Source: Octopus vulgaris
Lineage: Eukaryota
Assembly (NCBI GenBank): GCA_951406725.2
Contig: OX597840.1
Location: 35,030,001 to 35,094,000, forward strand
DNA: 64,000 nucleotides
Direction of reading: 5' to 3'
The notes below the pieces were generated by a model, which did not search any database, was not told the origin of the DNA, and was given only the letters and a program-made list of their open reading frames with translations. This document shows, piece after piece, positions 10-64,000 of this stretch. The position numbers and the translations under genes are program-made. The stretch's first letter is position 1. Every line of letters begins with the position of its first letter.

Positions 10-52
10 CCCTAACCCTAACCCTAACCCTAATCCCAACCCTAACCCTAAA
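10..52. repeat. Short interstitial telomere-like (CCCTAA)n tract
   Basis: About 7 units of CCCTAA with one degenerate unit (TCCCAA), followed by non-telomeric sequence. Confidence 0.8.
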
Positions 53-2537: not shown

Positions 2538-2734
2538 ATGACTCCTGGATACTCTTCAGCTGACACATCTGGTGCCAATGTCTGGGATCGAACCTTTTCT
2601 TGTTTGTACGTGTGTATGTCTTATGTGTATGTATGCATGTCTATGTATATTGGTGTTAATAAATCTGTGTCTGTACGTACTTACATACCGGCATGTCTTT
2701 TCGTATATGCGGGTACTACATCTCTCTATATAAG

Positions 2735-3700
2735 TATTTCTTTACTACCCACAAGGGGCTAAACACAGAGGGGACAAACAAGGACAGACATAGGTATTAA
2801 GTCGATTACATCGACCCCAGTGCGTAACTGGTACTTAATTTATCGACCCCGAAAGGATGAAAGGCAAAGTCGACCTCGGCGGAATTTGAACTCAGAACGT
2901 AAAGACGGACGAAATACCTATTTCTTTATTACCCACAAGGGGCTAAACACAGAGGGGACAAACAAGGACAGACATAGGTATTAAGTCGATTACATCGACC
3001 CCAGTGCGTAACTGGTACTTAATTTATCGATCCCCAAAGGATGAAAGGCAAAGTCGACCTCGGCGGAATTTGAACTCAGAACGTACCGGCCGACGAAATA
3101 CCTATTTCTTTATTACCCACAAGGGGCTAAACACAGAGGGGACAAACAAGGACAGACATAGGTATTAAGTCGATTACATCGACCCCAGTGCGTAACTGGT
3201 ACTTAATTTATCGACCCCGAAAGGATGAAAGGCAAAGTCGACCTCGGCGGAATTTGAACTCAGAACGTACCGACGGACGAAATACCTATTTCTTTATTAC
3301 CCACAAGGGGCTAAACACAGAGGGGACAAACAAGGACAGACATAGGTATTAAGTCGATTACATCGACCCCAGTGCGTAACTGGTACTTAATTTATCGATC
3401 CCGAAAGGATGAAAGGTCAAAGTCGACCTCGGCGGAATTTGAACTCAGAACGTACCGGCCGACGAAATACCTATTTCTTTTACCCACAAGGGGCTAAACA
3501 CAGAGGGGACAAACAAGGACAGACATAGGTATTAAGTCGATTATGTCGACCCCAGTGCGTAACTGGTACTTAATTTATCGACTCCGAAAGGATGAAAGGC
3601 AAAGACGACCTCGGCGGAATTTGAACTCACAACGTAGCGGCAGACGAAATACTGCTAAGCATTTCGCCCGGCGTGCTAACGTCTCCGCCAGCTCGCCGCC
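2735..3700 (-). mobile_element. SINE family B (Meta-domain-like): one tRNA-like head plus five tandem 184-bp bodies
   Basis: Units start (plus strand) at 2735, 2919, 3103, 3287 and 3472. A single head GGCGGCGAGCTGGCGG... begins at 3700 on the minus strand. The body has box B-like GAGTTCAAATTC and GCCTTTCATCCTTTCGGGGTCGATAAATTAAGTACCAG, which from memory resembles the MetaSINE central domain. Confidence 0.85.
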
Positions 3701-4273
3701 TTCACCCTCTATATATATGTGTGCGTGTCTGTACGGCTGTATGTGTCGTTATGTCTCTCTAATGCTCGCGTATATACGTCTGTATAAGAGTGTATGCGTG
3801 CGCGCGTGTCGGCATTTTAGAAGAGATTACCCGGAGTTATCTTCCCTTGCACAGATCCACAAAGCTTCAGACTTCGGAGAGTCAGAGGAGGAGGGGGGGA
3901 GAGCTCTTCTGTGAAATAAAACCTACTTCAGTATCGCTGTTTTCTCGTCTACACATTTATTAGACACATACATATATACAGACACATACATATATACACA
4001 TACATATATATATATATATACATATACACACACACATATATATTTATATATATAGACACACACACACACACATATTTCTGTCTAAATATGTATATATAGA
4101 CAGACACGAATATAGATTTATAAATTTTATACACACACACACACACATATATATATGTATGTATGTAAGTATATATATATATATATACATGTATGTATAA
4201 AGACATAAATGTTTGTTCGTCTAAAATTATTTATATCTATCGTTTAATTCTGTTACCTTTATAGAAAGATCGC

Positions 4274-11039: not shown

Positions 11040-11957
11040 TGTTACTAATTGCTATATCCCCCAAAGTCGGCCAGGATCGAGCAGGGCCTCTGATCAAATC
11101 CATTCCACCAGTCATTCTCTAGGACTAACCTGCATAATGTACATTATCTAACCCCCTTATTATTTGTTCCCCTTTCGCTTTTTCTCTCTCAGAGATTTCA
11201 GGGAGGTCGGACTACTATTTCCCTCTACTACTGTTGGACGTTGGATCGTCCACGGTTGGTGGATCAAAGCCATTCTATCAATTACCATCCTGTCTTTCTA
11301 GGACTGGCTGCATATCTTAATGTCCATTTTTTTCTGAGACTCCTTCATTCTCTCTCTCTCTATAATTTGAGGGATATTTGACTACTATTTCTCTCTACTA
11401 CTGTGGCCGCTGGATCGTCCACGGCTGGTGGATCAAAGCCATTCTATCAATTACCATCCTGTCTTTCTAGGACTGGCTGCATAGCTTAATGTCCATTTTT
11501 TTCTGAGACTCCTTCTTTTTTCTCTCTCTCTATAATTTGAGGGATATTTGACTGCTATTTCTCGCGTAATGCTGGCTTTTTGGTAGTTGAATGATTCACG
11601 TGTTTCTCATAGTAACAATTGTAGTAATGGCGATTATACCAAGTAGGAGTATCCTGTTTTGTTTAACCCAAGGTTGACTCCGATCCCCTAGACCTGTGAT
11701 CTAACACATCCTAGCCGGGAGCACCCTTTTTTCCCGTTTTTTTTTTTTTACTAGGCATATTATGCTCCGAATTATTGTGTCCTTGTATTATCTTTTGCTA
11801 AGATAGAGGGTGATTTGAGGGAAAATTGGACGCTATTTCTAACAGGCTCCCTCGTTGACTCACTCAGTCGACCCCTATCTCACTCCATGTCAGCATTGAT
11901 CCAGGAAATTTAGAATCAAAGGCGTTCCAATCATGACCATGCTGTATTTTCAAGACA

Positions 11958-12003
<46 letters not shown>

Positions 12004-13450
12004 TGCAATACACATGGTTTTTGATGATTTGGCTGCTATTTCCAGCAGGCTCCCTCCTTCGCTTTCGCTGGCATTGTTATCCCATAAGTCAGCAGCGATC
12101 TAGGAAATCTATAATCAAAAGCGTTCCATTTATGACTATCTCGTCTATTTTCAAGGGTGTATATCTCGAGTAATTCACATTATCCAACGTGTGATTTTGA
12201 GGGAGGCTTGGCTGCTATTTCTAGCATGTTCCCTCGTTGACTCGTAGGTTCCCTCGTAAGTCCAACCAGGCCATTACTGCTCCTGGAAGTCTAAACTCAA
12301 AGGCGTTCTCGCCATGACCATAACGTCTGTTTTCAAGACTATATATATATATATATATATATGCCAAGTACTGTATTATCCAACATGTGATTTTGAGGGA
12401 GATTTAGTTGCTATTTCCTGCGTTGACTCACTCTTGTATTTAGCCTTAGTCCCTCCCTCCAAACTTCACCCAACAGGTTGGCACTGATCCAGGAAATCTA
12501 TAACTAAAGGCGTTCCAGCTACGACTATCCCGTCTGTGATTTTTTTTATGGTGGGAAAGGGGTTTAGCTGTTGTTTCTAGCAGGCTTGGCATCAAGCACT
12601 ACATTATTATTCGATATTCATGTACGTATGTATTAATTATGTTCGACATTACTGACTCAGCGTGTGGTTTTTGAGGGAGATTTGACTGTTATTTCTAGCA
12701 GTTGGAACTGCCGTGTAGAAAGCCACGATGCTTCCCTGGCAAGCACTGCCTGTTACTCACGGCCTTTTTAATTATATACAATTTTATTTTCTATGCACAC
12801 ACACACACAGACTTGTTCACACGATACCCTATGAATCAGTATATATATACACACGTGCGTTTGCGTGTGAGATCATCTTCTTGTCGTTGTTGTTGCTTAG
12901 CCCTGGTCGAACCTAATTTAGGGAGATTTACGGGGATCGAACGTGTTCCAGCCGCGACCATCTCGGCTTTATTTCAAACATTATATCGCAAGGTCTTCTT
13001 GGTCAATGGCCTTCTTGTTCTGAAGACTGTTTCGTTTCGAGAATCGACGATCTGGTTGTTATTTCTACCATTCTGAGCGACTTCGTAGAGGCTTGTCCTA
13101 GCCTTTGACTGCATGGTGTGATTCAAAGGAGATTTGGCTGCTGTTTCTGCCGGGTCGAGCGAGAGGTAGCGTGGAGGCTAGTTTAGTCCCAGGTCGGCCT
13201 TCGTTGCTTCGGTTACGCACTGGGGTCGATGTAATCGATTTAATACCTATGTCTGTCCTTGTTTGTCCCCTCTGTGTTTAGCCCCTTGTGGGTAATAAAG
13301 AAATAGGTATATCAAAGGCTCTCACGCAATTTCTGCCTCAGGGGTCGTGTATCCAATGCCATCTTTTAAATACCGTGGGGTGATATTTGACTTCAAGGCG
13401 ATTCAGTTGCTATTTCTAGCATGTGGAGTGACCGCATTACCTGCTTTTAA
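11040..13450. repeat. Degenerate head-to-tail array of a ~170-200 bp dispersed repeat
   Basis: The motif pair ATCAAAGGC(G/A)TTCCA..TGACCATC and GAGGGAGATTTGGCTGCTATTTCTAGCA recurs about 10 times. The two units starting at 11210 and 11380 are near-identical. Dispersed copies also occur near 1140-1600, 10000-10160 (inverted) and 47030-47240. Confidence 0.7.
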
Positions 13451-13827
13451 ATATCTTTGGCCGATGCTGGGCTTACTAATTTCGAGTTGTAGGTGCGGGA
13501 ACTTTATAAAAAAATAAAAAATAAAGAAAAACGAAGCCGGCCCAACGAAATAGAGATAAAGTATAAAGTTACACAGATAATAATTGAGAAGAAATCTTAT
13601 CGGGTGTCGCGGGGTGGAACTTCGTAATATCATCGTGCACAAATCTGTCTGTCTGTCTGCTTTTATGCCCGCGTGTGTGTGTGTGCATCCATGCATGTGT
13701 GCACACATACATGCAATTCATCACGTGTCACGAAGCTTTTCTTTGTATGTTGGGGTCTATTCTGTCCGGAGGGGAGATGTGTGATCACAGCCCCACTGCG
13801 GCCATACCCGTACTGACTATACTACTT

Positions 13828-14253
13828 GTCTGTCCTTGTTTGTCCCCTCTATGTTTGGCCCCCCTTGTGGGTAGTAAAGAAATAGGTATTTCGTCTGCCG
13901 TTACGTTCTGAGTTCAAACTCCGCCGAGGTCGACTTTGCCTTTCATCCTTTCGGGGGTAGATTAAATAAAAGTACCAGTTTCGCACTGGAGTCGATGTAA
14001 TCGGCTTAATCCCTTTGTCTGTCCTTGTTTGTCCCCTCTGTGTTTAGCCCCTTGTGGGTAGTAAATAAATAGGGAATAGGTATTTCGTCTGCCGTTACGT
14101 TCTGAGTTCAAACTCCGCCGAGGCCGACTTTGCCTTTCATCCTTTCGGGGTAGATTAAATAAAAGTACCAGTTTCGCACTGGGGTCGATGTAATCGACTT
14201 AATCCCTTTGTTTGTCCTTTCTATGTTTAGCCCCTTGTTGGCAATAAAGAAAT
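13828..14253 (+). mobile_element. SINE family B headless body multimer
   Basis: A partial body plus two full bodies, joined by GAAATA|GGTATTTCGTC-type junctions near 13884 and 14078. Confidence 0.85.
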
Positions 14254-14830
14254 ATATACTACTTGGAGCAGTGTACATCAAGGCCATAGCTATCAAACGT
14301 CGGTGCTTTTTAGAAGGTTTGCTGCTGTTTCCGGCAGGTTCAACGACCTCATAGAGGCTTCTTTTGTTGTCTCCTCTATGTAAAGTAAAGCTGCTAAGCC
14401 CGCCTTACTCCTAGCTTACTCACCCTTGATTTAAAAACACGTGTGACACTATTACATAGCGAGTACCTTATGTTGTACGTATGTGTGTTTGTTTGTGTCA
14501 CGTCGCTCCAGTTCCACTCAGCTGTAGAAATGAGATTCGACGTCAGCGGTGCCAAGTTGTATCGGCCTTTGTTTCTTTACCCTTCGAATAACATCGGTGG
14601 CGTGGAGATGTTGTTAGGCTGGTATGCATGGGTGACCGCTGGTCTTCCATGAACAACCTTGCCTGTACTTGTTGCCTCGGAGGGGAAACCCTCTAGGTGC
14701 AATCCCATGGTCATTTTTGACCAATGGAGGGTCCACAAAAATATGTGGATATATATATATGTCAGTATGCCATTTATGTGTTTATATATGTATGTATACA
14801 CACACACATATACACATATATATATGTATA

Positions 14831-23035: not shown

Positions 23036-24391
23036 GAAATTGTATACACACTCATTCACACACAATTTTAGTTTATATTTATATATTTTAATTTTAGTTT
23101 ATATTTTTGTCCCTTTTTTGCTGCTGCCAGGAATGGTTTAGTAATTAAACTTTAGTTGAACAGATCAACCTGAAGCAATGATGGGTGCAAACACGAACAC
23201 ATTGAGATATATATACATGTCTGTCTGTCTGTCCATCCAAACGCGCGCACTTCTACCAAACCCATTCGCAAGGCTTTGGTCGGCCCCGGGGGCAATTCTG
23301 CAGAAGACGCCCTGCAGTGGCATTGAATCAAAGACAAAGCATGTGTTATGAAGTAAGCGCTTTCTTCCCACACAACTGCGCCCGCGCTTTTTTCTTTGCC
23401 CGTTTCTTTTCTTTCTTGCTACTTGGGGGCAATGTCACGATTCAGCATCGTTTTCTTTTTCTTTGATTAATATTTTTTCCCCCTCTTGAGTACATCCGTC
23501 GACTGCATTCCATTGTTTTATTATCGGTTCCAGCCAGAGGTTGCGACCATGCTGGGGGAAAAACCGTCATTACTGTATCTGTTTCTTTACTACCCACAAG
23601 GGGCTAAACACAGAGGGGACAAACAAGGACAAAGGGATTAAGTCGATTACATCGACCTCAGTGTGTAACTGGTACTTAATTTATCGACCTCGAAACGATA
23701 ACCGGCAAAGTCGACCTCGGCGGAATTTGAACTCAGAATGTAACGGCAGACGAAATACCTATTTCTTTACTACCCACAAGGGGCTAAACAAGGACAGACA
23801 TAGGTATTAAGTCGATTACATGGGCCCCAGTGCGTAACTGGTACTTATTTTGGTCATACAGAGGGCCTAAGATCAAAAGCATTCCAGAAATGACTGTGTG
23901 GTAAGAAGTGTGCTTCCAAAGCACATGGTTCCGGGTTCAGTCTCGTTGCGTGACATTTTGGGGAAGTTTTCTGCTATAACAAAACATTGAGCAGATTTGA
24001 TAGACGGAAACTGAACGAAACCCGTCGTATATATATAATATATATATATATACACACACATACTATCGTAGCTAGGGGAGGGCGGTACTTTGAAAGGGAC
24101 ATCACTTTTGGGTCTGCTGTAGCCGATGATTTTTGTGGGGACCGGGACCGGCATACGGAAGGGTCGACCTGGGCGGCACACACCCTAGCTACGCTAGTTT
24201 ATATATGTATATATATTTATATATATCGCATTCTGACTTTGTTTATATATATATATATATTTATATATATACATGCACACACACACGTAAACCTCGAACA
24301 ATGAGAATAAGTGCTTCAACCACAGCATTGGTGGATAAAGAATACTTTTATTTGTAGATTAAACCTACCATATATATATATATATATATAC

Positions 24392-24648: not shown

Positions 24649-26836
24649 GTACAAAGGGAGATAGGGGTTATGAGTGTAACCCACTATGGGATGTCATTTA
24701 TCCAATATACTGCCAGTAACGTACCCAAAAAGGCTAATACATAAATGCTAAGAATTGCAATGCAATTAATTCATTTATTGTATTATATGTATATATATAT
24801 ATATATATGTATGTATATTTGTGACCACCACTCAACCGGTCATGGTTTGTTTACGTCCCCGTAACTCATCGGTTCGGTAGAGACCTATAGAATAAGTACC
24901 AGAACTCAACGGATACTTGGGTCGGTTTCTTTCGAATAATACCATTCAAGGCAAGTGTCCCCCACCACAGCCTCCAGACTAAAGGCTTAAAACTAGTAAA
25001 TGAAAGATAATTTAGAAGATCTCATTTTTTTCCAAGAATTGGGTAACGTAACCTGGAATGCAGTTACCCAACGTATCAAAAAAAACAAAACAAGACAAAA
25101 CAAAAACGCAAAACAAAGGGCGATGTGGATTGAGGGAGGACGGGTTGCTATTTCTAGGTTCCGAACACTTTAGGACCCGAGCGCCCGCGTGCATGCGCAC
25201 TGCTGTTGAGCGCTAAGTGCGCACACGAAGTGCGCCTGCGCTGCCCGTGCCGAGGCCACACCCACTCCTGGTCCCGCCAGGGTAGAAACGGCGGCTTTTC
25301 AGTATGAATGTAATCGTGGTGATAAAAAGCCGGGGGTCTCCGGAGACATTGGTGGTGGCGGCGGTGGGGGAGACGGTGGTGCTGGTGGTGGTGGTAGTAG
25401 TAGTAGCGGTGCGAGTTGTAGTAGTCGTAGTATTAGTAGTAGTGTGAGCACCAAAGTTCTTAACAGCATTTACAGTTGGGTGTGGTATGTGTGTTTGCGT
25501 GTGTGTGTGTGTGTATGCACGTATGTGCGCGTGTGTGTATGTATGTATTTGCGTGTATGTACGTGTATGTGTATGTATTTGCGCGTGTGTACGTGTATGT
25601 GTATATGCACGTATGTGTATGTATTTGTGTGTACTTGCGTGTATGTACGTGTGTGTGTGTGTGTGTGTCTGTGCTTATATATATATATATATATGCATGT
25701 CTGTGTGTATACATGCCTGTGTGTGTGTATGCTCGTATGTGCGCGCGCGCGTGTGTGTATGTATTTGCGTGTATGTACGTGTGTTTGTGTGTGTGTTTGC
25801 GTGTATGTGTGTGCTTACAAATATGTATACATGCCTGCATGTGCGCGTGTGTATGTGTGTGTAAGTGTCTATGCTTGTATTCGCGTATATATACATATAT
25901 ATACGTACGTACGTCTGTGTGTGTGTGTATTCCTTCATCTCCACAAATGGGATAACGCTCGCTACCACACCCGTACCTCCATCTAATAATCACATGGATT
26001 GTGGAAAACGAAGTAGAGAAAAAAAGAGAGACAGACAGACAGAGTGAGAGAGAGAGAGAGAGAGAGAGATAGATAGAGAGATAGAGATGCCAGGGGAATG
26101 GGGGTGGGTGGGACGAGAGAGGAAGAAAGAAAGAGGCGGGGTGGCGGGGGTGAGCGCGGCAGAGAAGTATGCCAGATAATAACGATGCTGATGATGATGC
26201 TGATGATGATGATTTTTAGAGAGAGGAAGCTAACCAGCCGACATTCTATCTAAGCATGAGGGCGGGGTCGGGGGGTGGGCGTGGGGTGGGGGTGAACATT
26301 TTTACAGACAAATGTTACTATGGTTTCAGTGAAAAAATCCTCCACCACCACTACCACCACCACCACCACCGCCGTCGCATATTGCTATTTTGTTTGTTTT
26401 TTAGAAATTTTTTTTCTAACCAGCTGGGTGGGAGTGGAGAGGACCCGGGGGAGAGGGGTGTGAAGCCGAGGGGTAGGACGACTAGTTTTACTATATATAT
26501 ATATATATGTTTTTTTTTAAGACCATTATTTGCATCGTTTTTAAAAGGTTACATGTCCTTTTCTTTCGTTTAACATCCTTCTGCAATTCCTGCTGTCGCT
26601 CGCTCCCCCTCCCCCGGCCCCGCCACCCGAGTCCTACCCCCCACCCCCGCCATCTCATTCCTCCTCCTCCTCCTCCTTGTTCCCTTTTTGATCTGCTATG
26701 TGAAGTGATATTGTTGGATAGTTCATTGTTGAAACATTCTCTTCCAGATGCTCTTGGAGTTTTCTTTTCCTTTCATAATCATCATCATCATCATATATTT
26801 ATCAGTATATATATATTAACCACAGCTATAACTACG

Positions 26837-35289: not shown

Positions 35290-36807
35290 ATAGCTTACAT
35301 GTGATATTGGCAGTACCCCAGGGTGGTATTTGTCATGGAGGATGGGAGTTAGATGAGTAGCTGACATGTGACCAGAATTGTACTTTAGTCATGGAGGACA
35401 GAGACTTGACATGCTGACATGGAGCTTGGAGGTTTGACATGTGCCCCAGGATGGTACTTTAGTCATAGAGGACAGAGGCTCGACATGCTGACATGGAGCT
35501 TGGAGGTTTGACATGTGCCCCAGGATGGTACTTTAGTCATGGAGGACAGATGCTGACATGGAGCTTGGAGGTTTGACATGTGCCCCAGGATGGTACTTTA
35601 GTCATGGATGACAGAGACCAGACATGTTTAACTTACATGTAGGATGGGGGTTTGATATGTGCCCCAGGATGATACTTCCGTCATGGAGGATGGAGGTTAG
35701 ATGAGAAGCTGAATGTAAGGACAGACGGAATGCCGCTAAGCAATTTTCTTGGTGTGCTACATGAGGGTGTACTTTACTCATGGAGGACAGAGGTTAGACA
35801 AGTAGCTTACATGTGTCCCAGGATGGTACTTTACTCATGGAGGACAGAGGTTGGACAAGTAGCTCACATGTGCCCCAGGATGGTACTTTACTCATGGAGG
35901 ACAGGTTAGACAAGTAGACAGAGGTTTACATGTGCATCCCAGGATGGTACTTTACTCATGGAGGACAGAGGTTAGACAAGTAGCTTACATGTGTCCCAGG
36001 ATGGTACTTTACTCATGGAGGACAGAGGTTGGACAAGTAGCTCACATGTGCCCCAGGATGGTACTTTACTCATGGAGGACAGGTTAGACAAGTAGCTTAC
36101 ATGTGCCCCAGGATGGTACTTTACTCATGGAGGACAGAGGTTAGACAAGTAGCTTACATGTGTCCCAGGATGGTACTTTACTCATGGAGGACAGAGGTTA
36201 GACAAGTAGCTTACATGTGTCCCAGGATGGTACTTTACTCATGGAGGACAGAGGTTAGACAAGTCGCTTACATGTGCCCCAGGATGGTACTTTACTCATG
36301 GAGGACAGAGGTTAGACAAGTAACTTACATGTGCCCCAGGATGGTACTTTACTCATGGAGGACAGAGGTTAGACAACTAGCTTACATGTGTCCCAGGATG
36401 GTACTTTACTCATGGAGGACAGAGGTTAGACAAGTTGCTTACATGTGCCCCAGGATGGTACTTTACTCATGGAGGACAGAGGTTAGACAAGTCGCTTACA
36501 TGTGCCCCAGGATGGTACTTTACTCATGGAGGACAGAGGTTAGACAAGTTGCTTACATGTGCCCCAGGATGGTACTTTACTCATGGAGGACAGAGGTTAG
36601 ACAAGTCGCTTACATGTGCCCCAGGATGGTACTTTACTCATGGAGGACAGAGGTTAGACAAGTCGCTTACATGTGCCCCAGGATGGTACTTTACTCATGG
36701 AGGACAGAGGTTAGACAAGTCGCTTACATGTGCCCCAGGATGGTACTTTACTCATGGAGGACAGAGGTTGGACAAGTAGCTCACATGTGCCCCAGGATGG
36801 TACTTTA
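35290..36807. repeat. 57-bp minisatellite
   Basis: Unit ATGTGCCCCAGGATGGTACTTTACTCATGGAGGACAGAGGTTAGACAAGTAGCTTAC, about 18 homogeneous copies from ~35770, preceded by degenerate copies. Confidence 0.95.
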
Positions 36808-52319: not shown

Positions 52320-52703
52320 TCTTACATATAAAAATCTCCCTGTATCATGTCTTACATACAAAAATCTCCCTGTATCATGTCTTACATATAAAAATCTCCC
52401 TGTATCATGTCTTACATATAAAAATCTCCCTGTATCATGTCTTACATACAAAAATCTCCCTGTATCATGTCTTACATATAAAAATCTCCCTGTATCATGT
52501 CTTACATATAAAAATCTCCCTGTATCATGTCTTACATATAAAAATCTCCCTGTATCATGTCTTACATATAAAAATCTCCCTGTATCATGTCTTACATATA
52601 AAAATCTCCCTGTATCATGTCTTACATATAAAAATCTCCCTGTATCATGTCTTACATATAAAAATCTCCCTGTATCATGTCTTACATATAAAAATCTCCC
52701 TGT
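52320..52703. repeat. 30-bp minisatellite, ~12.8 copies
   Basis: Unit CTTACATATAAAAATCTCCCTGTATCATGT. Only units 2 and 5 differ (T>C). Confidence 0.97.
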
Positions 52704-53425: not shown

Positions 53426-53764
53426 TACTATTATTATTATTATTTAAGGCAGCGAGCTGGCAGGATCATTAGCATGCCGGGTGAAATGCTTAGCGGTATT
53501 TCATCCGTTTTCATGTTCTGAGTTCAAATTCTGCCGAGGTTGACTTTGCCTTTCATCCTTACCGGGATCAATAAAATTAGTACCAGTTATGCACTGGGGT
53601 CGATGTAATCGACTTGTCTCCTTCCACCAAATTTCAGGCCTTGTGCCTGTAATAGAAAGCATTATTATTATTATGCCAGTGAACTGGCAGAATCATTAGC
53701 ATGCTCCGAAAGGATGAAAAGCAAAGTTGACCTCAGTGGAATTTGAACTTGGAGCATAAAGACA

Positions 53765-57971: not shown

Positions 57972-58440
57972 AGGCGGCGACCTGGCAGAAACGTTAGCAA
58001 GCCGGGTGAAATGCTTAGTGGTATTTCGTCTGCCGTTACGTTCTGAGTTCAAATTCCGCTGAGGTCGACTTTGCCTTTCATCCTTTCGGGGTCGATTAAA
58101 TAAGTACCAGTTACGCACTGGAGTCGATGTAATCAACTTAATCCCTTTGTTTGTCCCCTTTATGTTTAGCCCCTTGTGGGTAGTAAAAACTTAATCCGTT
58201 TGTCTGTCCTTGTTTGTCCCCTCAGTGTTTGGCCCCTTATGGGTAGTAAAGAAATAGGTATTTCGTCTTTCGTTGTGATCTGAGTTCAAATTCCGCCGAG
58301 TCAACTTTGCCTTTCACCTTTTCGGGGTCGATTAAATAAGTACCAGTTACGCACTGGGATTGATGTAATCGACTTAATCCGTTTGTCTGTCCTTGTTTGT
58401 CCTCTCTATGTTTAGCCCCTTGTGGGTAGTAAAGAAATAA
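57972..58440 (+). mobile_element. SINE family B head plus multimerised body
   Basis: Head GGCGGCGACCTGGCAGAAACG, then body, a partial repeat, the junction GAAATA|GGTATTTCGTC near 58256, and a second body. Confidence 0.85.
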
Positions 58441-60390: not shown

Positions 60391-61856
60391 TATACTCTAT
60401 CCTACGTTTTCAAAACTTAATTATTACAAATTTAACAGAATCTTAGTTCTAAGATTCTACTTTGCCCCCCCCCCCCAATATATCATTGCTAATCACAAAT
60501 AACCCCATAGCACAGACACTCACAGCTCCACTCCTGCTCACACTCATAATACCCACCTGTTTGCGTGCGTGAGTGTGAGTGTGAGTGAAGTGTCCTGTAG
60601 AACAGATTGCCTTTCTCCTATTTAGGTTAATGAACCAGGCTTCTTAGCCTGTCCTGATTGGACATGTTAATTACATACATTGATGAATTTAGTCGTTAGC
60701 CAGCTGGAGAGGAAGCGAGCGAGTGGCGGTGAGAGTAGGAGCAGTGGGGGAGGGGTAGGTGGGTGTGGTGGGGGGTTGGGGGGGGTCGGGGTGGCGAATT
60801 TACTAAGCATCTGTTACCCAACTCGTCATCCACCAACCACAGAAAAAAAGAATAGAAACGGCATTGCTAAAAATATCAACAAATGGCATCGATGTTTTAT
60901 TTTGCCTTTGTCGGACGACGACCACAAAAACAGTCCAAAATCGGAAACAAACAAACAAACAGACAACAAAACCAAAAAAAAAAAAACAACAAAAATCGTT
61001 AATAAAAAAAACAACAACAAAAAAAACAATCGTTAACAACAAAAATAAAAGGAAAGAAAAAAAAGATTCGTTTTACAAAAGATCTGAACATGGAGAAGAA
61101 GTGGGATAGATTAGGGGTGGAGTTTGGAGTGGTGGGGTGGAAAAGCATTTAATCAATTAATCCATAAATAGCATGAAATATAATTTATTACTATTATTAT
61201 TATTATTATTATTATTATTGTTATTATTATTATTAAAATGCTTGGCAGTATTTCGCCTGTCTTTACATTTTGAGTTCAAATTCTGCCGGGGTCGACTTTG
61301 CCGTTTATCCTTTCGGGGTCGTTAAAATAAGTACTAGTAACACACTGGGGGTTAATGTAATCGACTTCCCCACTCTCCTTAGATTGCTGGTCTTGTGTCG
61401 AAATTTACGTTCTGAGTTAAAATCCTGCTGAGGTCAACTTTCCCTTTCATCCCTTTGGGGTCAATAAAATAAGTACCAGAGATGTAATCGATTTAGTTCC
61501 CCGACCCCATATGCTGGCCTTGTACCGAAATTTGAAACTGTTATCGAGTTCAAATCCTGCTGAGGTCAACTTTGCCCTTCATCCCTTTGGGGTCAATAAA
61601 ATAAGTATCAGAGATGTCATCGACTTAGTCCCCCACCACCCCAATTGCTGGCCTTGTGCCGAAATTTGAAACTGTTATCGAGTTCAAATTCTGCTGAGGT
61701 CAACTTTGCTTTTCATCTTTTGGGGTCGATGTAGTAAGTTTAATCCCATCCCTCAAAATTTCAGGCCTTGTACCCTTAGTAAAAAGGATTATTATTATTT
61801 TTCGTTTTTGAATTTGGTTTGCAAGATTCTTTATATGAGTTTGTGTATTGAAGTAT

Positions 61857-62367
61857 ATTCTGTTGTGTCTGGGGAGAGTCATTCTCTTTTAGTGCTTTAT
61901 TATTTAACACTCACCGGTAAAATTTCCACTTTTTTCTTATTTTTATTTTCCTAAAATTTTCATTGTGTCTTGCAACCTTTTCAATAGTCTTTTCAAGAGT
62001 CTTGACTCTTGTAAAGGTTGCAAGACGCAACGAAAATTTTTAGGGAAATAAAAATAAGAAATAAGTGGAAATTTTACCGATGAGTGTGGCAGAAACGTTA
62101 GCATGCTGGGCGAAATACGTAGCCGTATTTCGTCTGCCGTTATGTTCTGAGTTCAAATTGCGCCGAGGTCGACTTAACCTTTCATCCTTTCGGGGTCGAT
62201 TAAATAAGTACCAGTTACACATTGGGTTGATATAATTGACTTAATCCGTTTGTCTGTCCTTGTTTGTCCCCTCTATGTTTAGCCCCTTGTGGGTGTAATA
62301 AAGAAATAGAGTGTGTTACGTAATAAGGCACAAAAAGAGAATGACTCTCCCCAGACACAACAGAATT
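61857..62367. mobile_element. Penelope-like fold-back remnant, right arm interrupted by SINE B (62088-62308)
   Basis: The left arm 61857-61989 is the reverse complement of 62004-62087 plus 62309-62367. The SINE B is flanked by TSD GAGTGT. Hammerhead-like motifs sit at the inner end of both arms. Confidence 0.7.
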
Positions 62368-64000
62368 ATTATTATTATTTTGTTGTTACAGCATTCATGT
62401 CTCTCTTCATTGCGGGATCTGCTCCATTCTTGCATATTGATGGCACCAAGATGTTACACCCTTTCGTGTCTGGTCTGGCAGCAGCTGCTCATCATGGCCA
62501 TTAGCCACATGCTGCTGCTGCTGCTAATAATAATTATAATAATAATAATAATAATAATAATAATTTCTTTATTGCTCACAGGCTAAATATAGAGGGGACA
62601 AACAAGGACAGATAAATGGATTAAGTTGATTACATCGACCCCAGTGCATAACTGGTACTTGTTTAATGGACCCCGAAAGGATGAAAGGCAAAGTCGACCT
62701 CGGCGGAATTTGAACTCAGAATGTAACGGCAGATGAAAAACAACTAGGTAGTTTGCCTGGCGTGCTAATGATTCTGCCAGCTCACTGCCTTAATAATAAT
62801 AATGATAATAATAATAATAATAAATGCCCTGATGCAGTACCAGGCAGTGGTTCTCGTGGCTTCTGATCTTAACTGATTGGAAGTGTTATCATGTACATTG
62901 TTTTGTCTTGGTATAAAAGATGGGCCACAGCAAATATTCTGCTCAATACCACAGATTTGCTTGTCAGTTGTTTGACCGTAACCAGTTGAGCATGTCCCTT
63001 AGTGGCTGACGATATGTGCATCTCTGATCACGAGCAGAAGTAGTAGGGGAGCATCATAGCCATGTGTTGAGAGGGATTCTTTGGGGTTTGAATAATTCAC
63101 CTCTGGAAACATGGGTGTTTCGTTCAACATCCTTAAACAACCCTTATTCAGGGACCTTTTGAGCGGGATGGGTTACTCGATCTGAAGAAAATTCTAACTG
63201 GGCCCCACCTGCAAGGTCATGTGCAGTTTATTTTGACATGAGATCACCATGTCATGCACATATATATCATTGCTAATCATAAATAACACCTATTGTGAAA
63301 TGTCCAACTTGCAGCTATTTAAGGTAAGACTTGGAACAGCTTGTATAAAACAAAGCAACAACACAAATAATAATGATAATAATAATAATAATGATAACAA
63401 TAATAATAATCATCATCATCACCATCGTTTAACATCCACTTTCCCTGCTAGCATGGGTTGGATGATTTGACTGAGGGCTGGCAACCAGATGGCTGCACCA
63501 GGTTCCTATCTGATCTGGCAGAGTTTCTACAGCTGGATGCCCTTCCTAATGCCAACCACTCCGAGAGTGTAGTGGGTGCTTTTACATGCCATTGGCACGA
63601 GGGCCAGTCTGGCGGCACTGGCAACGGCTACGCTTATCTTGATATAAGATCACCACTTTTCTACTATAGGCACAAGGCCTGAAATTTGAGGGAGGAGTTA
63701 GTGAATTACATTGAGCCCCCAGTGCATAACTGGTGCTCATTTTATCAACCCCAAAAGGAAGAAAGACAAAGTTGACCCTGACAGACTTTGAACCCAGATT
63801 GTAAAGATGGGCGAAATGCCGCTAAGCATTTTGTTTGGCATGCTAATGATTCTGCCAGGTGGCCACCTTACATATATTGCTTTCAAATTTTGGCACAAGG
63901 CTAGCAATTTTGGGGTAGAAGGGCAAGTTGATTACATCAACCCCTGTGTTTAACCGGTACTTATTTTATCGACCCTGAAAGGATGAAAGATAAAGCATTG

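What the first reader, a model, noticed from the sequence alone, without database searches (positions are those of the whole stretch)
2735..3700. SINE body multimerised through one recurrent junction at the loop of an anticodon-position hairpin: possible circular or processed RNA intermediate
Seen: one tRNA-like head followed by five 184-bp bodies. The same junction (sense AAGAAATA|GGTATTTCGTC) recurs at separate loci (~13884, ~23760, ~58256; variants at ~13304 and ~14078). A TSD-bounded monomer at 62088-62308 shows the element ends at GAAATA with no tail. The unit starts at the 3' edge of the loop of the hairpin GGGCGAAATGC-TTAGC(A/G)-GTATTTCGTCT between box A and box B. The RNA 3' end GAAAUA is complementary to the UAUUUC two bases into the unit. 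Inference: loop cleavage (tRNA-half-like) plus end pairing could give a 184-nt circle or a precise RT template jump, producing multimeric insertions without a ribozyme. A simpler alternative is a multimeric master copy plus unequal crossover.
Basis: partly seen in the sequence, partly recalled or inferred. Interest (0 to 1): 0.7.

Follow-up and report, generated by a model that had tools for sequence, protein, structure and literature searches.

The report
Self-joining SINE that builds tandem chains
A very common short jumping element in this animal genome sits as one head plus several 184-base bodies, likely because its RNA runs on into five to seven letters that also occur inside its own head, so copies get joined to older copies at that one spot and then grow by ordinary DNA duplication; we found no sign of the proposed RNA circle.

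Summary
Observation confirmed: one head plus five ~184-bp bodies. The exact junction (J1) occurs 28,268 times genome-wide, 28% of 101,064 tail ends. The circle/loop-cleavage reading fails its DNA predictions: dimer units are unrelated (35 of 44 share no rare variant), free 5' ends do not pile up at the loop (1 of 42), there is no hammerhead core, and a tail variant with the same GAAATA end mostly joins elsewhere (odds ratio 275). Target-site duplications begin with GG(TAT) after one tail variant and with A after the other, so priming likely uses an RNA overhang running past GAAATA. That overhang matches the head at position 49: two clear nested insertions sit there, and old, mutually unrelated bodies end many chains, so J1 was re-made many times. 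The unit has no T4 terminator. A dimer 64 kb away, with its own target duplication, shares this array's rare unit-1 and unit-2 variants. Long arrays are near-identical hybrids of first and last unit, i.e. local duplication. The tail matches an L1/Tx1-like LINE end. Similar arrays are published for clams and reptiles, and this scan noted the family before at other places in this genome. RNA template switching remains a live rival.

The parts
3653..3701 (-). Single tRNA-like head (consensus positions 1-49) with A-box-like motif at 3690-3680
   Evidence: box named by eye and a regex; ARAGORN and Rfam find no tRNA
3642..3669 (-). Hairpin between the boxes; its 3' arm begins with the (G)GTATTT landing site (positions 49-55)
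3616..3628 (-). B-box-like motif, present in every unit
   Evidence: by eye, the strict regex did not match it
3472..3652 (-). Unit 1 body plus tail A; shares rare variants 119A and 157C with unit 1 of sibling L164
3287..3471 (-). Unit 2; shares rare 60G and 65G with unit 4 and with unit 2 of sibling L164
3103..3286 (-). Unit 3 (5' part like unit 5, 65G like units 2 and 4)
2919..3102 (-). Unit 4 (1 substitution from unit 2: two-unit higher-order repeat)
2735..2918 (-). Unit 5, terminal; carries 62T/64T typical of B-type bodies; ends GAAATA
2735..2780 (-). LINE-derived end of tail A (present in each unit), similar to the 3' end of an L1/Tx1-like LINE
3461..3479 (-). Junction J1, first of four (others at 3276-3294, 3092-3110, 2908-2926)
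3707..3715 (-). Candidate 5' target duplication TATATAGAG (weak)
2724..2732 (-). Candidate 3' target duplication TATATAGAG (weak)
13826..14254 (+). 5'-truncated trimer with target duplication TATACTACTT; second junction has a short extra repeat; last unit has the CAAT tail
13212..13309 (+). 5'-truncated monomer ending with a GGTAT run-on into flank (not a junction)
23576..23851 (-). 5'-truncated dimer with J1
57972..58439 (+). Head-bearing dimer with J1, an internal tail duplication and target duplication AATATATGTTTA
62088..62309 (+). Monomer with 7-bp target duplication

Best explanation
This is a SINE whose copies sit as one head plus several bodies joined at one fixed base, likely because its RNA runs past the tail into GGUAU(UU), pairs with matching target DNA to prime copying, and so lands at the same letters inside older copies, after which the composites are likely transcribed through, copied as multimers and lengthened by local DNA duplication. 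Steps: (1) Shown: target duplications start with the letters that follow the tail in multimers, GG(TAT) for TART tails and A(GA) for CAAT tails; pairing to an RNA overhang is the inferred cause. (2) Shown at two loci: young copies inserted at position 49 of older copies, with the host head and a duplication still in place. (3) Inferred: Pol III starting at the new head reads through, as the unit has no T4 run, giving head-body-J1-body RNA, which an L1/Tx1-like LINE inserts as a unit or primes at any internal tail; one sibling pair shows position-specific inheritance. (4) Pattern shown, mechanism inferred: slippage or unequal exchange between homologous bodies lengthens arrays out of register with J1. 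No RNA cleavage, circle or ribozyme is needed.
For: TSD start tracks the tail variant: GG 30 vs A 5 for TART, GG 5 vs A 20 for CAAT, p=5e-7; GG 30/58 against 3.8% background, GGTAT 16/58 against 0.07%. Genome-wide tail-by-junction counts 28,268/275 vs 498/1,330, odds ratio 275. Nested insertions at 49 in old tail-C hosts: L012 and C1:4,056,043; L170 is a complex third case. Tail-B ends make their own rare junctions at microhomology sites: 38 of 54 at position 16-17 and about 22 of 60 loci at 49-54 with varying offsets, counted by eye. No T4 in the consensus or the array. 28 of 53 multimers are TSD-bounded, monomers 31 of 48, control 5 of 1,500. Heads of A..B composites are A-type and young: 62T 6/42 vs 18/21 in B monomers; divergence 6.6% vs 6.3% (A) and 11.6% (B). 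L164, with its own 19-bp TSD, shares 157C (2/284 units) in unit 1 and 60G/65G in unit 2. Neighbour divergence falls with array length, 9.8% (n=3), 5.5% (n=4-5), 0.5% (n>=6); internal units match the last unit 5' and the first unit 3' in 20 of 27 arrays, p=0.02. Tail shared with APE/RT/zf-RVT LINE ends, best PDB match human L1 ORF2p E 1e-42.
Against: Only 2 of 91 head+J1 elements (plus one the filter missed) keep a host head, so few visible founders must explain many composites. No sibling clusters among 41 composite B bodies implies more than about 300 founders if equally active, which fits direct, one-off events at least as well. TSD age of A..B composites lies between A and B monomers, 5.8% vs 4.3% and 7.2% on few sites: inconclusive. 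The stricter polarity test on derived alleles has only 6 informative arrays (5 of 6, p=0.22); the pooled p=6e-5 is not independent. Pairing is not detectable beyond GGTATTT: the eighth base is C in 8 of 50 true ends, background 14%, so the length of the RNA overhang is unknown. The LINE copies found end in TATC repeats and match only ~45 nt of the tail; partnership is inferred. Transcription by Pol III was not shown.
Confidence: 0.55

Rival explanations
1. RT template switching between RNAs: copying starts on one SINE RNA, reaches positions 55-49, and the new cDNA end pairs with the GGUAUUU 3' end of a second SINE RNA, so multimers are stitched from different RNAs at insertion, without cleavage.
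For: Explains unrelated units, all-A young heads, star-like B bodies, B sequence reaching to within 13 nt of J1 (62T 29/42), B bodies in composites a little younger than B monomers (CpG change 12.8% vs 19.4%, p=0.006), and the tail-junction linkage. LINE RTs are reported to jump between templates (PMC6895275, passages).
Against: No pile-up of free truncations at 49 (1 of 42). Second units are not a random draw from monomers: CAAT tail 22/44 vs 34/141, p=0.002; 62T64T 9/44 vs 7/141, p=0.004. Sibling L164 needs an inherited multimer. True nested DNA insertions exist.
Confidence: 0.22
2. Seamless self-insertion: each J1 is a direct insertion at position 49 of a genomic copy, and the 5' join is made by homology so that only one head remains.
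For: Terminal B bodies are older than the A unit before them (6.5% vs 4.6%, paired p=0.001, no correlation) and unrelated to each other; CAAT last units are also older than their first units (0.052 vs 0.035, p=0.017). Nested cases show the site is used.
Against: Host alleles should survive in the head or in the duplicated 50-64 stretch. They do not: 62T64T in unit 1 is 2/20 when unit 2 has it and 4/52 when not; head age is A-like from position 2 on. TART-ended multimers have equal-aged first and last units.
Confidence: 0.13
3. One ancestral multimeric master plus unequal crossover explains everything; J1 arose once.
For: One junction position in 146 of 157 junctions, invariant G; strong tail-junction linkage; cis expansion.
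Against: B bodies after J1 are as diverse as free B monomers (pairwise 13.7% vs 13.1%) and form no clade (19 changes, shuffled mean 19.6), while their A parts are young; de novo J1 at nested loci.
Confidence: 0.06
4. One reading: the RNA is cut in the hairpin loop and its ends pair to form a 184-nt circle that is copied round and round.
For: The junction lies at the 3' edge of the loop, and the unit's ends pair in the predicted fold. About 22 of 60 tail-B junction loci also fall at 49-54. 9 of 44 dimers share a rare variant.
Against: Unrelated dimer units; no free 5' ends at 49; G independent of the head's loop base; same end joins position 16 in CAAT tails; hybrids out of register; unit fold z +0.41; no hammerhead core or Rfam ribozyme.
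Confidence: 0.04

Closest known systems
TSD1-(SINE)n-TSD1 arrays of the blood clam Scapharca broughtonii (PMC11481361; passages and section 15 read)
   Same: One SINE with a full tRNA head followed by units truncated at the same head position, inside one target duplication, 4-15 units; mollusc.
   Different: There about 3% of copies are tandem and the first and inner units have cut tails; here 28% of tail ends are junctions, every A unit keeps a full tail, and the target duplication itself starts with the junction letters. No overhang mechanism appears in the parts read.
SINE-derived satellites (sSat) of squamates (PMC10702118; first part, passages and Discussion read)
   Same: Tandem parts of a SINE with a longer terminal unit; homogeneity rises with unit number; di- and trimeric higher-order patterns. 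The same paper cites jerboa Dip SINE multimers (nearly half of copies, up to eight).
   Different: sSats are treated as DNA-level satellites; here short multimers are dispersed, TSD-bounded and appear to retrotranspose as multimers.
Complex (dimeric/trimeric) SINEs such as Alu, Urop, Tu II/III (PMC13023118, PMC3531059; passages read)
   Same: Fused units under one 5' Pol III promoter, amplified as a whole.
   Different: Those have a fixed unit number from one fusion; here the number varies and the join was re-made many times.
SINEU-3 with Tx1-Mar of crocodilians (PMC4494074; passages read)
   Same: A SINE moved by a Tx1-type LINE that lands in a repeat and stacks in tandem.
   Different: There 90% of copies sit in the target and tandem copies sandwich a TSD; here most copies land in unique DNA starting GG(TAT), the repeat target is the family's own head, and the preference follows the RNA's tail variant.
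Non-LTR retrozymes (PMC7229834 passages; 10.64898/2026.07.22.740005 abstract)
   Same: 150-450-bp tandem units, dimers to long multimers.
   Different: They carry a type I hammerhead and make circular RNA; no hammerhead core here, a Pol III-type head, a LINE-derived tail and TSDs.
Octopus OR1/OR2/OK SINEs (Ohshima and Okada 1994; seen only as citations in PMC4758252 and PMC4824008)
   Same: Likely the same or a related tRNA-derived family; this lead is recalled, not tested.
   Different: No consensus could be retrieved, so identity is untested.

Membership tests
tRNA-derived SINE | Short, interspersed, at least 100 copies | tested here: met
   232-bp monomer; 101,064 exact tail ends, 41,090 exact head hairpins
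tRNA-derived SINE | Target-site duplications | tested here: met
   31 of 48 monomers, 28 of 53 multimers, control 5 of 1,500
tRNA-derived SINE | At least 60% identity to a tRNA; A and B boxes | tested here: inconclusive
   A-box regex hit at 12; B-box-like motif by eye only; ARAGORN and Rfam found no tRNA; no tRNA alignment made
tRNA-derived SINE | 3' region shared with a partner LINE | tested here: met
   ~45 nt aligned with 8 LINE-type ends; ORFs with Exo_endo_phos, RVT_1, zf-RVT upstream at two loci
tRNA-derived SINE | Pol III transcription | not testable with these tools
   Only assembled contigs of guessed RNA runs were available
Non-LTR retrozyme | Type I hammerhead ribozyme in each unit | tested here: not met
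   No CTGANGA on either strand of a unit dimer; no Rfam ribozyme at E<=5
Non-LTR retrozyme | Circular RNA of unit length | not testable with these tools
   J1 exists in DNA, so junction contigs cannot show a circle; DNA predictions of circle copying fail
SINE-derived satellite (sSat) | Tandem SINE part with a longer terminal unit | tested here: met
SINE-derived satellite (sSat) | Homogeneity rises with unit number | tested here: met
   9.8%, 5.5%, 0.5% for n=3, 4-5, >=6 (only 3 arrays with n>=6)
SINE-derived satellite (sSat) | Subtelomeric enrichment | not tested
   No genome-wide positions available
Clam TSD1-(SINE)n-TSD1 arrays | Full head first, same head truncation in later units, one TSD pair | tested here: met
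Clam TSD1-(SINE)n-TSD1 arrays | First and inner units have a truncated tail, last unit complete | tested here: not met
   Inner A units carry the full tail; the last may carry a different tail
Target-specific Tx1-mobilised SINE (SINEU-3 type) | Most copies flanked by the target repeat | tested here: not met
   2 of 91 head+J1 elements plus one missed keep a host head; terminal ends lie in unique DNA
Octopus OR1/OR2 CORE-SINE | Identity to published consensus and CORE domain | not testable with these tools
   Supplements unreadable or without the sequences

The most novel reading that the evidence does not exclude
A self-propagating junction at the RNA level: the SINE RNA's 3' overhang steers the reverse transcriptase onto the same seven letters inside other family RNAs, so different SINE transcripts are stitched into concatemers during insertion thousands of times, with each tail variant choosing its own landing site. 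This would be a natural, genome-scale readout of RNA-guided priming and template switching by an L1/Tx1-type enzyme. The ribozyme-free 184-nt circle is not formally excluded, but I give it about 0.04.
Probability: 0.22. Interest if true: 0.62.

Novelty: new variant of a known kind. Interest (0 to 1): 0.42.

Why it matters
One-head, many-body SINE arrays are described in clams and reptiles without a tested origin. Here the family has tens of thousands of junctions, two tail variants with different landing letters, and visible founder-like nested insertions. That gives a testable route from a dispersed retroposon to tandem repeats, and large-scale evidence that 5-7 bases beyond the LINE-derived tail bias target choice. 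It also warns that junction-spanning RNA reads from this family will mimic circular RNA, and that repeat libraries will split the family. It is not a new ribozyme-free circular RNA system on present evidence.

Tried and rejected
Rfam at E<=5 over 2600-3800: only a chance mir-297 hit. ARAGORN: none. Read laying on the array: the two raw DNA runs gave 2 and 47 reads, the contig runs were swamped by paralogues; unit-number polymorphism could not be tested. One contig of organism B covers the 3' flank and 25 bp of the array with no difference, which suggests a shared insertion and no more. Read laying on the monomer: J1 is present in contigs of two guessed-RNA runs, but J1 exists in DNA, so this says nothing about circles or ends. 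Test of whether the overhang ends at UUU or runs on: 88 of the 100 listed matches examined (10 not fetched, 2 overlapping dropped), 50 true ends, eighth base at background; inconclusive. Head-versus-body age correlation per element had no power (rho 0.1 even in monomers). My first idea, that the 65G variant arose in place, was rejected when sibling L164 carried it. My single-master reading was lowered. Naming the family failed: supplements unreadable or without sequences, the octopus genome paper is not held; supplements I could not see may describe these multimers. Nine literature searches found no paper on multimers of this SINE in octopus; subscription papers are not covered. Earlier-findings search by sequence was empty.

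Full report
1. Observation. The array is real: period 184, five copies, 96% matches, read on the minus strand as one head (3701-3653) and five bodies. The junction J1 occurs 7 times in the window and never in 100 shuffles. The window lies in a 2.8-Gb animal genome. That it is an octopus is inferred from recall and from earlier scan notes, not tested. Exact-pattern counts genome-wide: 101,064 tail ends, 41,090 head hairpins, 28,268 J1.

2. Sample. I parsed about 1.5 Mb. Of this, 664 kb are blocks on C5, C10, C15, C20 and C27 (including the window) chosen without regard to junctions; the C1 blocks were chosen as junction-rich, and the small loci were chosen by pattern. Thirteen overlapping loci were dropped and a few more later. 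Fractions from the pooled set are therefore not genome rates. Positions refer to a 232-bp consensus.

3. Anatomy. The family has a head, a shared body (49-167) and alternative tails: A (this array), B and an older C. The last ~45 nt of tail A align with the 3' ends of a LINE with endonuclease, RT and zf-RVT domains, best solved match human L1 ORF2p; I call it L1/Tx1-like by inference. Of 263 complete tail-A ends, 146 continue at position 49 (4 with a short extra repeat), 11 at position 16 (J2), 106 go into flank, and no other junction was seen. The unit has no T4 run, so Pol III read-through is allowed (established terminator rule, from my knowledge).

4. The RNA runs past GAAATA. At terminal ends the target duplication itself begins with the junction letters: TART tails GG 30, A 5 of 58; CAAT tails GG 5, A 20 of 30; p=5e-7. 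GGTAT follows 16 of 58 ends against 0.07% background. An endonuclease cannot see a tail variant, so the simplest cause is pairing of an RNA overhang with the primer. Pairing is not detectable beyond seven bases. The same linkage holds for junctions genome-wide: TART 28,268 J1 and 275 J2; CAAT 498 J1 and 1,330 J2. Tail B, with 5,611 exact ends, joins the exact loop-edge 10-mer only 4 times; its rare junctions follow its own microhomologies, 38 of 54 at 16-17 and about 22 of 60 loci at 49-54 with varying offsets (by eye).

5. Tests of the circle. Dimer units are unrelated: median 10.4% versus 10.5% permuted; 35 of 44 share no rare variant, 9 do. Free 5' truncations are scattered, 1 of 42 at 45-55. 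The junction G does not follow the head's loop base. The unit folds like its shuffles. No hammerhead core or Rfam ribozyme. RNA data could not test it.

6. How J1 arises. Two young A copies sit at position 49 of old tail-C copies with host head and duplication intact (L012; C1:4,056,043); L170 is a complex third. These are rare: 2 of 91 by filter. In A..B composites the head and first 64 nt are A-type and young, while the terminal B body is B-type from position 62, older than the unit before it (6.5% vs 4.6%), as diverse as free B copies, and without clades or sibling pairs among 41 (bootstrap not settled). So J1 is not one old event; it was re-made many times by homology. Whether by nested insertion plus read-through, by template switching between RNAs, or by seamless insertion is not settled. 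The absence of host alleles argues against the last, TSD ages are inconclusive, and the lack of siblings counts against my preferred route.

7. Multimers are copied as multimers. 28 of 53 are TSD-bounded. The rare unit-2 motif of this array occurs 4 times in the genome, three here and once 64 kb away. That locus, L164, is a dimer with different flanks and a 19-bp TSD starting GGT; its unit 1 shares 119A and 157C and its unit 2 shares 60G and 65G with this array. Its head differs at five sites, which I cannot explain fully.

8. Growth in place. Neighbour divergence drops from 9.8% (trimers) to 0.5% (n>=6, three arrays), and internal units match the last unit at 5' sites and the first at 3' sites in 20 of 27 arrays; the stricter test is 5 of 6. 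In this array units 2 and 4 differ by one substitution and units 3 and 5 by three, while 4 and 5 differ by seven: a two-unit duplication. DNA exchange and RT slippage on a multimeric RNA give the same pattern; I could not separate them.

9. Comparison. The architecture matches clam TSD1-(SINE)n-TSD1 arrays and squamate sSats; it works partly like complex SINEs and Tx1-targeted SINEU-3, and is not a retrozyme. Nine searches found no paper on this family's multimers. Earlier scan notes on the same genome offered the doubled-source, seamless-insertion and run-on readings; they prompted and are not independent support.

10. Verdict. Real and abundant; a new variant of known SINE multimers with an unusually clear overhang signal; circle unlikely. 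Interest 0.42.

Noticed in passing
L164 = G000:C27:35,097,467 (64 kb from the array): The only other carrier of the array's rare unit-2 motif lies 64 kb away on the same contig, which hints at local hopping or a nearby source copy.
   Followed up: partly
L160:387-3864 and L119-L120 (C1:2.93 Mb; C10:20.09 Mb): L1/Tx1-like LINE copies whose 3' ends match tail A and run into TATC-type microsatellites; several lie clustered on C10. ORF2 is interrupted in the copies seen.
   Followed up: partly
window 61236-61739 (+): Older tail-C copy with a 132-bp, 2.6-copy tandem joined at the B box (position ~75), a different junction from J1.
   Followed up: no
window 11210-11563: 169-bp two-copy tandem unrelated to the SINE by BLAST; its minus strand has a GAAATAG motif at the unit edge, probably by chance.
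   Followed up: no
window 10-51: Seven CCCTAA telomere-type repeats at an interstitial position, 5 Mb from the contig end.
   Followed up: no
window 35362-36807 and 52320-52703: Homogeneous minisatellites: 57 bp x18 with 65/74-bp relatives, and 30 bp x13.
   Followed up: no
window 62563-62791 and 53446-53680; C27 neighbours: Family copies (tails A and B/C) flanked on both sides by TAA/ATT microsatellites, suggesting a second partner LINE that targets TAA repeats.
   Followed up: no
L227 = G000:C24:32,712,9xx; G000:C5:48,225,5xx; G000:C1:15,779,653: Independent tail-B tandem arrays with their own junctions (positions 49 and 51, and a 101-bp period x7), showing that any junction can seed an array.
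   Followed up: partly
window 25210-25983 (+): 258-codon open frame with Gly/Ser-rich stretch in GC-rich DNA; possibly an exon, not examined.
   Followed up: no
runs X23, X24: Raw DNA runs with the same species label lay almost no reads on this very abundant SINE; the label or library is doubtful. X24 shows a short ~70-bp unit with an internal deletion.
   Followed up: no
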